Assembly: GCF_037042905.1 (NCBI RefSeq)
Contig: NC_087251.1
Location: 23,562,001-23,626,000 of the forward strand
DNA from: Lytechinus pictus
Lineage: Eukaryota
Direction of reading: 5' to 3'
Length of the DNA: 64,000 nucleotides
In this document: in pieces, positions 5,901 to 8,900 of the stretch
How the letters are laid out: each line of letters starts with the position of its first letter
Numbering within the stretch: the first letter of the stretch is position 1
Made by a program: the position numbers and the translations under genes
Notes under the pieces: model-generated
Database searches by the model: none
Told to the model about the DNA's origin: nothing
The model's input: the letters and a program-made list of their open reading frames with translations, nothing else

Positions 5901-8900
5901 ATAGTTTTGCATGCAGTATCAATCCGATGAATAGTCAGATTGGCACTCCATGGACTATGCCAAATTTATAAAACTTGTAAACCCCTAGAAATGTATAATT
6001 CTTGCAAAGTGATTGCTGCTGACTCAAATACAAGTAAGAGACAAGGGATCTAATAAAGAATGAAGAATCTAATTTGCTTAGACTGAAAATATGATAAATA
6101 TATATTAATAAACTAATAGTTACATAGTATGTTGGTAGCACAATGAAAGAGGTAGATGGAAAGTAATAGAAAGAGAATACATTATATTCAACAATTTAAG
6201 TGTCTTTCATAGGAGTAATGTTTCTCAGAAACATAAAAATATCATTTACATAAATGATAATGTCACTTCAATCAATTTCATTTTTTTCAAAATAGTACAC
6301 TGCAATCTTTATCAAGGAATTCAAATGAATGTGGTATAGATCTAACATACAGTGGACAAAAATCATCCTTCACATTAACTCATACTAGAAATACCAGGAC
6401 AAGGTAAATTTAGAATGAAACTTTTTATCAATAGATAACTATATAACTTAATTATTCGAATCATTTAAAAGACATCTGAAAACAAAACTTATCTTTGTTG
6501 TAGTGTAATTGTAATATTGGAGAGTAATTTGTATATGTATAGTGCATAGAGCAGTTTTAATTGATTGTGCACTATATAAGCACCAATTTATTATTATTAC
6601 TATTTCTTCTTTTTTTTTGTTTATGGTAACATTTAATATGGATACAATGTGCAGAGAAAAATGACTAAAAGAACTCCTACTTGAAGCAATGTATATTTAG
6701 AATGTCATGGTGTTTCCACATAAAATGATGCTGTTGGAGGGTTTCATTATGTCATGTTACAATTAAATCTTACTATGTGTGCTGGGGATTTAAAAAAATA
6801 TGGCTCATGGTTTCAAAGCAAAAATTCTTAGAATAAGGATAAAACAGAATAAACTGGGATACATGACATATATAAAATGAAGGCTATCATTTGTGAGTCA
6901 CAAGCAAGTTAATTAGTGTTCTATATTTAAAAGAATACTTGAAACTATTACCCATTCAAAATCTATGTTTTCTTTAAACATTACATTTTCTAAGTGAGGC
7001 ATGTGCATGACCTAGTTTTGTATTAACACACGCTTTGCATAACACCTGAAAGCTCAGACGATGTAGGATTCAACATGTTACAAGTAATGGGCACATCCAA
7101 TTTTCTGACTCGTATGAAAAACTTTATCCTCCATGCACCGTGAAAAGGGTTCTTTCATAGTACAGACTACAGTAATTATCATATTAATAATTATGATTTG
7201 AGATTAATTGATCTTTCTCCATAAAAAAAAGGAATTTGCTTCAAGGTAAAGGAAAGTGATTACAGCAAACCCTGATTTCATGGAGACTCTGTAAAATAAA
7301 AACACACATTTTCATCTGCATCAATTGCCTGTTCAATATGAGAAATAAGTAAGGACCATATCTGATGAAAATCCCATAGGTTACTGTTCAAAACTTGCTG
7401 TTCAATTTAGAAGTATTGTACAATCTAATGCGAATGTGCAGAAAATACAACGCGTAAGTAAAACTTAATGACGTCATAATGAACTACAAGAAAGCCACAT
7501 TTCTATTACCATATTATGAAGTGAAGTAAGTGGTAAGTGACATGACTTGCCCAATCAAAATTTTCTGCTTTTTTTTTTTGGGGGGGGGGGGGGTAGATAA
7601 TAATAATTATGAATATATATATATATATATATATATATTGTAAAGAAATGGATGAAGAGAACAATGGTAGGCGTAGCTTATTAAAATCAAGGTTCCCCAG
7701 AGCTATCTACCCTTTGGAAAAATTGGTGAGGCCGAAAAAATGTCTCTGCCGGGAATCGAACCCGGGCCCCAAGCTTCGAACGCCGGTGCCTTAACCACTA
7801 GACCACAGAGACGGGTTAGTGGCTAGGGCGACCCCGATCCGATTGACCGTCAGATAGACAGATTTTCGACACTATACCCATTATAATTTCCTTTGTCGGG
7901 TGAAGGTGGGTTTCGAACAATGACAAGCTGCCATGCTTTAGCTGGATCAAAGCTATTGCTTTGATACAGTACACATATGGGAGAAAGATTTAAATAAAAG
8001 AGTTGCCAAAGCTGTTGTACATGTATAACCTTACACATTTATATATATATATATATATATATATATATCTGTTTAAATATGTCTATCTACCTATCCATCT
8101 ATCTGCCTGTCTCCATCTATCTATCTATCTATCTATTTATCTAATATATATCTATCTGTTTGAATATGTCTATCTTTCTATATCAATCTATCTGTCTGTC
8201 TGTCTGTCTCATCTCTCTCTATCTATTTATCTATCTATCTATATATCTGTCTGTCTATCTATATTTATTAATATAACCAACTATCATTTATCTCTCCATC
8301 CATCCATCTATATATATAATTATCTATCTTATATGTATCTGTTTGAATATGTATGTCTGTTTCTCTATCTATCTTTCAATCTAATATTTGTTTAAATATT
8401 ATTTTCTTTTTATCTATACGACAGACCACCTAATTCGTTCGTATGATGAATTTAAATCTAGTTACTATTTCTTTTTTTTTTGTTTATGGTAACATTTAAT
8501 ATGGATACAATGTGCAGAGAAAAATGACTAAAAGAACTCCTACTTGAAGCAATGTATATTTAGAATGTCATGGTGTTTCCACATAAAATGATGCTGTTGG
8601 AGGGTTTCATTATGTCATCTGTTATAATTAAATCTTACTATGTGTGCTGGGGATAAAAAAAATATGGCTCATGGTTTCAAGGCACAAGAAATTCTTAGAA
8701 TATAGTTGTTTTTTCCCCATCTTGGTATAATCGTTTAATATGCTAATTCCATGTTTATACATGTACAACCAGAAATTATTTAATCAATCATTAGATTTAT
8801 GATATCTCTTATTTCCTTGTAAGCCAGGTGAAATGCACCTATCTCATTGACAAAATCCCTTTAAGCAGTTTTACCAACCTTATCGTCATTTTCCCCCTTA

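What the first reader, a model, noticed from the sequence alone, without database searches (positions are those of the whole stretch)
7639..8035. Small mobile element in a (TA)n tract carrying an internal, self-terminating tRNA-like gene
Seen: a 397-bp insert with TGTAA..TTACA ends splits a (TA)n tract, and the paralogous tract at 10021-10080 is uninterrupted, so this is a discrete insertion. It carries a complete 72-nt cloverleaf (7741-7812, minus) with a perfect acceptor stem and T arm, A and B boxes, anticodon TCG and T6 directly after the discriminator base. Known: SINEs have the tRNA part at the 5' end and read through into a body. Here it is internal (about 220 bp upstream, 100 bp downstream) and terminates at once, so it is not a normal SINE. 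TRIMs with small-RNA genes in their LTRs exist (Cassandra 5S; Helenus tRNA-like). Inference: a solo LTR of such a TRIM, or a microsatellite-targeting non-autonomous element that spreads a Pol III unit making a discrete tRNA-like RNA. G32 and an anticodon-stem mismatch argue against translation. No clean TSD is readable.
Basis: partly seen in the sequence, partly recalled or inferred. Interest (0 to 1): 0.72.

Follow-up and report, generated by a model that had tools for sequence, protein, structure and literature searches.

The report
tRNA-bearing tandem retroelement, head-to-head copy
The insert is one rearranged copy of a very abundant ~405-base sea-urchin repeat that carries a whole tRNA-shaped gene; it was likely pasted into a TA microsatellite by the enzymes of a Penelope-like retrotransposon, it is not the end-repeat of an LTR element, and the job of its tRNA is untested.

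Summary
The insert, the empty paralogous (TA)n tract and the 72-nt cloverleaf with T6 are real. The solo-LTR (Helenus/TRIM) reading is not supported. Contigs of four public runs (three coded organisms) show a high-copy family whose ~405-bp unit closes head-to-tail. In the family, 7988-8045 points the other way and lies between the end and the start of 7637-7987. The window copy is two pieces joined head-to-head, 3' ends outward into (TA)n, that add up to one unit within 2 nt; the TGTAA..TTACA 'termini' result from this. No PBS, PPT or hammerhead core was found. Family letters give anticodon TCA (UGA-reading) and a fully paired anticodon stem; TCG and the mismatch are peculiar to this copy; G32 is shared. 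Tandem units, an inverted truncated partner, a tail at one end and a (TA)n target match Penelope-like (Naiad-type) insertions; no autonomous partner could be tested. Host: Lytechinus, EML6 intron. This scan found the same family before on other DNA of this genome (at least five notes). New here: the exact one-unit copy, and one contig breaking at tRNA +1, a weak hint of a processed or circular RNA template.

The parts
7637..7987 (-). Piece 1: main body of the unit (175-nt leader, tRNA-like gene, ~100-nt trailer); its 3' end (tRNA strand) meets the left (TA)n tract with 4 nt of microhomology (ATAT) to the family sequence
   Evidence: tables 5, 7, 8
7988..8045 (+). Piece 2: 58-nt 'tail' that in the family follows the 3' end of piece 1; here inverted and joined head-to-head; 3' end runs into the right (TA)n tract through TATATA
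   Evidence: X11 record 1 holds 7910-7987(+), 7988-8045(-), 7637-7815(+) in one contig; opposite-strand joints in 4 of 4 runs
7741..7812 (-). tRNA-like gene, 72 nt, 4-nt variable loop, G32; anticodon TCG here, TCA in the family; U8, A14, G15, G18, G19, C48, T54, T55, C56, A58 present
   Evidence: (table 3); sequence
7794..7805 (-). A box of the Pol III internal promoter
   Evidence: sequence; consensus recalled
7752..7762 (-). B box of the Pol III internal promoter
   Evidence: sequence; consensus recalled
7735..7740 (-). T6 directly after the discriminator; T5 (7718-7722) and T4 (7683-7686) follow; these are the only T-runs of 4 or more on the tRNA strand of the unit
7813..7987 (-). Leader, the variable part of the family; holds a perfect 8-bp hairpin at 7946-7965
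   Evidence: table 3; sequence
7993..7998 (+). AATAAA on the tRNA strand of the unit, just inside the tail (possible poly(A) signal, untested)
7613..7638 (.). Left (TA)n target tract, 13 units
8040..8068 (.). Right (TA)n target tract, 14.5 units (first 6 nt shared with piece 2)
10021..10080 (.). Empty paralogous site, (AT)30, in a local duplication
5165..11711 (-). Host intron of EML6 (approximate limits from flanking exon matches); the tRNA-like gene lies on the mRNA strand

Best explanation
The insert is one head-to-head copy of a high-copy, non-coding ~405-bp unit that carries a whole tRNA-like gene and closes head-to-tail in the family, and it likely spreads as a non-autonomous passenger of a (TA)n-targeting Penelope-like retrotransposon. 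Shown: unit order, inversion, polarity of the two pieces, microhomology with the target, family letters. Inferred steps: (1) an RNA of unit length or longer is made on the tRNA strand; (2) a GIY-YIG endonuclease nicks both strands of a (TA)n tract; (3) each nicked end anneals to one of two AT-rich sites of the unit, 58 nt apart on one side (J1 at 7637, J2 at 8045), and primes reverse transcription; (4) the two cDNAs are joined head-to-head, usually with the long piece 5'-truncated; here nothing was lost. Role of the tRNA gene, my odds: internal Pol III promoter whose leaky read-through supplies template, as shown for Cassandra's 5S unit, 0.45; cut mark for RNase P in long transcripts, in place of a hammerhead, 0.3; passenger 0.2; working UGA reader 0.05. 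Most transcripts would stop at T6 and give a short tRNA-like RNA that cannot serve as template.
For:: 8335, 5, 885 and 52 contigs laid in runs X2, X11, X12, X17. In X11 (5 of 5 contigs, 7 pieces) the unit forms a closed path at even depth (78.1 for record 1; 75.8 and 68.4 summed over the variable leader). Opposite-strand joints at J1 are listed in 26, 1, 4 and 4 contigs and at J2 (7987/8045) in 2, 1, 1 and 1 contigs. Nine further listed joints link the main body to the tail in the window's orientation with nine different breakpoints (7661-7913), two with letters between that are the reverse complement of the main body's 3' end, which simple deletion cannot make (15 of 71 joints and 12 of 35 'between' rows are shown). 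Loose ends: AT-rich variable sequence before 7642 (47 contigs X2, 20 X12) and a TA run behind 8028 (12 contigs X12), so both J1 and J2 serve as ends in TA-rich flanks. Both pieces point 3'-outward on the tRNA strand, the polarity that target-primed reverse transcription needs; unit 409 nt in window letters, 4-nt microhomology left; no purine run of 9 or more on the tRNA strand; no CTGAnGA on either strand. Craig et al. 2021 (PMC8557442, passages): Naiad insertions are partial tandems, often with an inverted 5'-truncated copy at the 5' end and a 30-40-bp tail at one end, target (TA)n so that TSDs cannot be read, and lack canonical hammerheads; non-autonomous Chlamys families form head-to-tail multicopies. 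Its supplement lists (TA)n-targeting Hydra elements in a sea cucumber. tRNA conserved: 0 of 72 sites variable at 5% or more in X2 against 15 of 127 leader sites (Fisher p 0.0013; 20 of 127 with five differences of organism B, p 1e-4; sites where only the window copy differs were left out).
Against: No autonomous partner was shown: no genome is held, none of 39 window ORFs scanned (of 70 of 85 aa or more) hit a GIY-YIG family, and Craig's files list no sea-urchin element, so 3'-end likeness to a partner is untested. The tail is 58 nt (about 50 without the TA run), longer than the 30-40 bp described. LINE twin priming (recalled) gives the same geometry. All data are short contigs: array length and the share of tandem against dispersed copies were not measured, and summed depth is no copy number. 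In X2, X12 and X17 depth over the tRNA and trailer is about twice that over the leader, which X11 does not show. The trailer is as conserved as the tRNA (2 of 99 sites), variable sites are linked in subfamilies, and no compensatory stem change was seen; one contig of X17 has five changes inside the tRNA, so decayed copies exist. Three T-runs must be read through to make any template.
Confidence: 0.62

Rival explanations
1. A SINE-like passenger of a microsatellite-targeting LINE (RTE, Tx1, L2 type); the window copy is a twin-primed 5' inversion.
For: Geometry and microhomology fit twin priming (recalled; only a search listing seen); TA run at the J2 end (table 7); variable truncation of the long piece.
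Against: The tRNA is not at the 5' end and is followed by T6; the unit closes head-to-tail with short fixed junctions; the second priming site is fixed at J1 in many copies; no poly(A) tail.
Confidence: 0.13
2. A tRNA-derived satellite (like newt PolIII/TAN or Xenopus OAX) that spreads at the DNA level; this copy was captured by repair of a break in a fragile (TA)n tract.
For: Closed unit at even depth in X11; tRNA-bearing tandem repeats of 200-360 nt are described in amphibians (PMC10702118, passages).
Against: Both target ends copied the same strand and the pieces abut without overlap, which points to a single-stranded template; nine more same-polarity joints; many ends in TA-rich flanks. 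An in-place flip by TA homology would leave TA at the inner junction, and there is none (sequence at 7987/7988).
Confidence: 0.12
3. Solo LTR (or LTR-internal tandem array) of a Helenus-type TRIM, mobilised by a Gypsy element.
For: On the tRNA strand the main body has the Helenus layout: leader, cloverleaf, T-run, pyrimidine-rich end in ACA (compare Helenus-1_SyJa LTR); tandem arrays are reported for LTR-11_DR; a Gypsy element lies in the window.
Confidence: 0.07
4. A MITE-like DNA transposon with short TIRs; the other joints are internal deletions of it.
For: 6 of 7 terminal bases are inverted repeats; main-to-tail joints vary on both sides.
Against: The direct 7987-7988 junction is in no listed piece; depth is lowest there in X2 (73,678 against 263,171 and 365,994 beside it); the skim run X11 assembles only the head-to-tail order.
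Confidence: 0.03

Closest known systems
Naiad and non-autonomous Chlamys (MRC1-type) Penelope-like elements (Craig et al. 2021, PMC8557442; passages and supplement part 1 of 59 seen)
   Same: Head-to-tail copies, inverted 5'-truncated partner, tail at one end only, (TA)n target without readable TSD, no canonical hammerhead
   Different: No tRNA gene is described in them in the passages seen; tail here is 58 nt; no partner identified; no sea-urchin family listed
Animal non-LTR retrozymes (Cervera and de la Pena 2020, PMC7229834, passages; Li et al. 2026, bioRxiv 10.64898/2026.07.22.740005, parts 1-3 of 5)
   Same: Non-coding tandem units of a few hundred bases, as monomers and multimers, without LTR, PBS or PPT, proposed passengers of Penelope-like elements
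   Different: Defined by a type I hammerhead in each unit; none found here, a tRNA-like gene instead; circular RNA is shown for them and untested here
Helenus / TRIMp3 (Kojima 2024, PMC10886601; main text parts 1-5 of 6, supplement parts 1 and 9 of 11 and term searches)
   Same: Internal full cloverleaf followed at once by a T-run; odd anticodons, including suppressor calls in fungal families; size range
   Different: Helenus has two LTRs, PBS, PPT and 4-bp TSDs in animals; none here; no echinoderm family listed
tRNA-bearing tandem repeats of amphibians: PolIII/TAN, OAX, Rana/polIII (as reviewed in PMC10702118, passages)
   Same: Tandem unit of a few hundred bases with a tRNA-derived part and no matching SINE
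   Different: No dispersal into microsatellites or head-to-head insertion is mentioned in the passages seen; the cloverleaf here is complete and uniform across three organisms

Membership tests
Helenus (TRIM with tRNA in LTR) | tRNA-like sequence with A and B boxes inside the terminal repeat | tested here: met
   (for the tRNA itself; that the body is an LTR is not shown)
Helenus (TRIM with tRNA in LTR) | LTR bounded by TG...CA as a native unit | tested here: not met
   the TG end belongs to a piece that is inverted relative to the family
Helenus (TRIM with tRNA in LTR) | PBS after the 5' LTR and PPT before the 3' LTR | tested here: not met
   no purine run of 9 or more on the tRNA strand; the one TGG(C/T)(G/A) site lies in the leader, not after an ACA end
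Helenus (TRIM with tRNA in LTR) | 4-bp TSD in animals | tested here: inconclusive
   target is (TA)n
Non-autonomous Penelope-like element | Head-to-tail or partial tandem copies | tested here: met
   closed path in X11, both junctions in 4 of 4 runs; array length not measured
Non-autonomous Penelope-like element | Inverted 5'-truncated copy joined at the 5' end | tested here: met
   window copy and nine listed joints
Non-autonomous Penelope-like element | Short tail present at one end only | tested here: inconclusive
   two alternative 3' ends 58 nt apart; published tails are 30-40 bp
Non-autonomous Penelope-like element | (TA)n target preference (Naiad, Hydra) | tested here: inconclusive
   this copy and TA-rich loose-end consensus at both ends (table 7); no genome-wide count
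Non-autonomous Penelope-like element | 3'-end likeness to an autonomous RT + GIY-YIG family of the same genome | not testable with these tools
   no genome held; no sea-urchin family in the supplement
Non-LTR retrozyme | Type I hammerhead in each unit | tested here: not met
   no CTGAnGA on either strand of the closed unit; no ribozyme family in Rfam at E up to 1 on the window arrangement
Non-LTR retrozyme | Circular monomer RNA | not testable with these tools
   only contigs were available
tRNA-derived SINE (SINE2) | tRNA head at the 5' end reading into the body | tested here: not met
   175-nt leader is part of the family; T6 follows the tRNA
tRNA-derived SINE (SINE2) | LINE-derived 3' tail | not testable with these tools
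   no repeat library or genome
tRNA-Sec | Long variable arm and extended acceptor/T stack (recalled) | tested here: not met
   72 nt, 4-nt variable loop, 7+5 stack; Rfam gives tRNA, not tRNA-Sec; ARAGORN's 'SeC' label follows the anticodon

The most novel reading that the evidence does not exclude
A retrozyme that has swapped its ribozyme for a host enzyme: RNase P cuts long transcripts once per unit at the tRNA, the monomer is ligated into a circle, and a Penelope-like reverse transcriptase primed at two AT-rich sites copies the circle into (TA)n. This predicts both odd observations: a copy that breaks exactly at tRNA +1 (unligated monomer; joint 7812-8013, the deepest of 9 same-strand joints in table 5) and a copy that is exactly one unit with both pieces abutting (circle; this window). 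A side product would be thousands of genes for a UGA-anticodon tRNA mimic.
Probability: 0.17. Interest if true: 0.82.

Novelty: new variant of a known kind. Interest (0 to 1): 0.5.

Why it matters
If the main reading holds, Penelope-like elements have tRNA-gene-bearing passengers, the counterpart of SINEs (LINEs) and of Helenus/Cassandra (LTR elements); I found no paper on this (searches; Repbase and Dfam could not be searched). Thousands of young copies with two defined priming sites would make the poorly understood tandem/inverted insertion step of Penelope-like elements open to study from genome data. The family also matters for annotation: tRNA finders label it tRNA-SeC or suppressor, and a single copy can be mistaken for a solo LTR or a MITE, as happened here.

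Tried and rejected
No genome held. No second copy in the window. Pattern scans: viral contigs 1 locus, metagenome contigs 10 loci, all 11 unrelated tRNAs or other repeats sharing only the T arm/acceptor end; prokaryote genome contigs 0. Helenus supplement: 0 hits for three family motifs and for echinoderm names; hits for two generic motifs were unrelated. Idea that the tail is a diverged duplicate of the main body's 3' end: not significant (277 of 2000 shuffles scored as high). Hammerhead core: absent. PBS/PPT on the opposite strand: a 9-nt purine run exists but is 8 nt from the next TG, and the TGG sites matched no tRNA 3' end that I recall; not pursued. The +1 breakpoint is one contig; chance of one exact hit among 8-10 breakpoints is 0.02-0.03, 0.07-0.08 within one base, and it was picked after the fact. 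That the short piece starts inside the tail in all nine joints is forced by how such joints are listed and is not evidence. A tRNA-Glu origin with a register shift in the anticodon loop is recalled likeness only, not tested. Comparison with published Penelope-like consensus sequences was limited to three short motifs, so relatedness to them stays open.

Full report
Observation. The insert splits a (TA)n tract and the paralogous tract at 10021-10080 is empty; the duplicated flanks differ at 9 of 257 and 10 of 632 aligned bases. The tRNA-like gene at 7741-7812 (minus) is called by ARAGORN and Rfam (54.7 bits) and is followed by T6. It is the only copy in the window. The host is a Lytechinus sea urchin: over 1908 EML6 core positions the window differs from L. 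pictus at 3, L. variegatus at 23 and S. purpuratus at 96. The insert lies in an EML6 intron with the tRNA on the mRNA strand. No genome is held.

The family. Twenty of 24 listed runs hold part of the insert, none more than 0.38 of its words; they are labelled with five coded organisms and marine metagenomes. I laid four of them: 8335, 5, 885 and 52 contigs. In the small run X11 one 311-nt contig reads 7910-7987 (+), then 7988-8045 on the minus strand, then 7637-7815 (+); the other four contigs bridge 7786-7936, so the path is closed, at depth 78 against 68-76. The same two opposite-strand joints are listed in all four runs (J1: 26, 1, 4, 4 contigs; J2 at 7987/8045: 2, 1, 1, 1). No listed piece crosses 7987-7988 directly. 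So the family unit is about 405 bp (409 in window letters) and is arranged head-to-tail, or as permuted copies, and the window copy is rearranged. Dispersed fragments exist too (X2 record 26, 186 bases inside a 1726-base contig). Thousands of distinct contigs imply a high copy number; summed depth was not used as a count. Against even depth: X2, X12 and X17 show about half the depth over the variable leader.

The window copy. On the tRNA strand it is two pieces joined at their 5' ends: 7987 to 7637, ending in the left TA tract, and 7988 to 8045, ending in the right one. Each outer end shares letters with the target (ATAT, TATATA; and sequence). Together they equal one unit, abutting exactly at J2 and within 2 nt at J1. 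Nine other listed joints have the same orientation with the long piece cut at 7661, 7662, 7668, 7670, 7706, 7717, 7812, 7902 and 7913; two carry the reverse complement of the main body's 3' end between the sides (tables 5 and 5c; 15 of 71 and 12 of 35 rows shown). Loose ends show TA-rich flanks at both J1 and J2. Inference: both nicked target ends primed on one single-stranded template of tRNA polarity. Mutual blocking of two primers explains one exact junction; the second needs a defined RNA end, a circle, or chance (about 1-9% on simple uniform models).

The tRNA. In 4 of 4 runs 7777 and 7771 carry other letters in 97.9-100% of depth, which makes the anticodon TCA and pairs the whole anticodon stem; ARAGORN then labels it SeC from the anticodon, and the cloverleaf improves from -26.0 to -29.6 kcal/mol but still holds only 8% of the ensemble. 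It lacks the long arm of tRNA-Sec (recalled) and keeps G32, rare in working tRNAs (recalled). In X2, 0 of 72 tRNA sites vary at 5% or more against 15 of 127 leader sites (p 0.0013), 20 of 127 with organism B's differences (p 1e-4); I left out the sites where only the window copy differs, 8 rows were not shown, and the sites are linked. The trailer is equally conserved (2 of 99), and no compensatory change was seen, so selection on the fold is not shown. One X17 contig has five changes within the tRNA. The residues that RNase P and RNase Z need at the elbow (recalled) are all present.

Comparison. Kojima 2024 (PMC10886601; parts 1-5 of 6; supplement parts 1 and 9 of 11 and searches) defines Helenus by two LTRs, PBS, PPT and 4-bp TSDs in animals. 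Its LTRs already show a full cloverleaf with a T-run straight after it, so that layout is known; but the unit here has no PPT on the tRNA strand, no PBS after either ACA end, and no native TG start, and no echinoderm is listed. Craig et al. 2021 (PMC8557442; passages; supplement part 1 of 59 and a term search) describe for Naiad elements partial tandems, an inverted 5'-truncated copy, a 30-40-bp tail at one end, (TA)n targets and no canonical hammerhead, and head-to-tail non-autonomous Chlamys families. This is the closest match to the anatomy. Non-LTR retrozymes (PMC7229834, passages; bioRxiv 10.64898/2026.07.22.740005, parts 1-3 of 5; its supplements not seen) are tandem passengers of such elements but are defined by a hammerhead, absent here. 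tRNA-bearing tandem repeats are known from amphibians (PMC10702118, passages). A search for Penelope with non-autonomous, tRNA-derived and RNA polymerase III gave 0 papers; searches listed nothing on this family. Repbase and Dfam were not available, so a database entry cannot be excluded.

Earlier notes of this scan. A sequence look-up found nothing, but place look-ups listed at least five notes on other DNA of this genome describing a 404-407-bp tRNA-bearing repeat in TA microsatellites with a UCA anticodon and Penelope-type insertions. I had the closed unit, the inversion and the TCA anticodon before reading them (note); they raised my odds for the Penelope reading over LINE twin priming and supplied the preprint and the term head-to-head. 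They are unchecked notes and are not counted as evidence.

Verdict. Real feature; first interpretation partly right. Best reading: non-autonomous Penelope-type tandem retroelement with a tRNA gene (0.62), a new variant of a known kind; partner and tRNA role untested. Interest 0.5; 0.82 if the RNase P and circle model holds (0.17).

Noticed in passing
PMC10886601 supplement, Helenus-2_SyJa-LTR and Helenus-2_SyUm-LTR: Both gall-wasp Helenus LTRs hold, by eye, a canonical hammerhead (CTGATGA core, stem II, GAAA, GTC cleavage triplet, complementary loops) in type III order next to a decayed tRNA part; the paper's main text does not mention it. LTR retrozymes are described mainly from plants, so this may be an animal case. 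Not folded.
   Followed up: partly
window 42104-46458 and 41185-42103 / 46732-47662: A Gypsy element (RT, RNase H, integrase; frameshift between ORFs 43589-46180 and 42831-43859, minus) lies between ~930-bp inverted repeats of 92% identity, a probable foldback-type element.
   Followed up: no
window 56688-59118: Exact 1216-bp tandem duplication (100% identity) that doubles the first coding exon of EML6; a very recent duplication or an assembly artefact.
   Followed up: no
window 5273-11186: The EML6 intron is a patchwork of local duplications (three to four partial copies at 92-97% identity); the third copy near 5593 ends at the point where the (TA)n tract begins.
   Followed up: partly
window 38063-38980: Tandem repeat of 163-192-bp units, 4-6 copies.
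   Followed up: no
L001:1455-1528: ARAGORN calls a tRNA with anticodon CTA (labelled Pyl) in a tRNA cluster of a 223-kb viral contig; unrelated to the finding.
   Followed up: no
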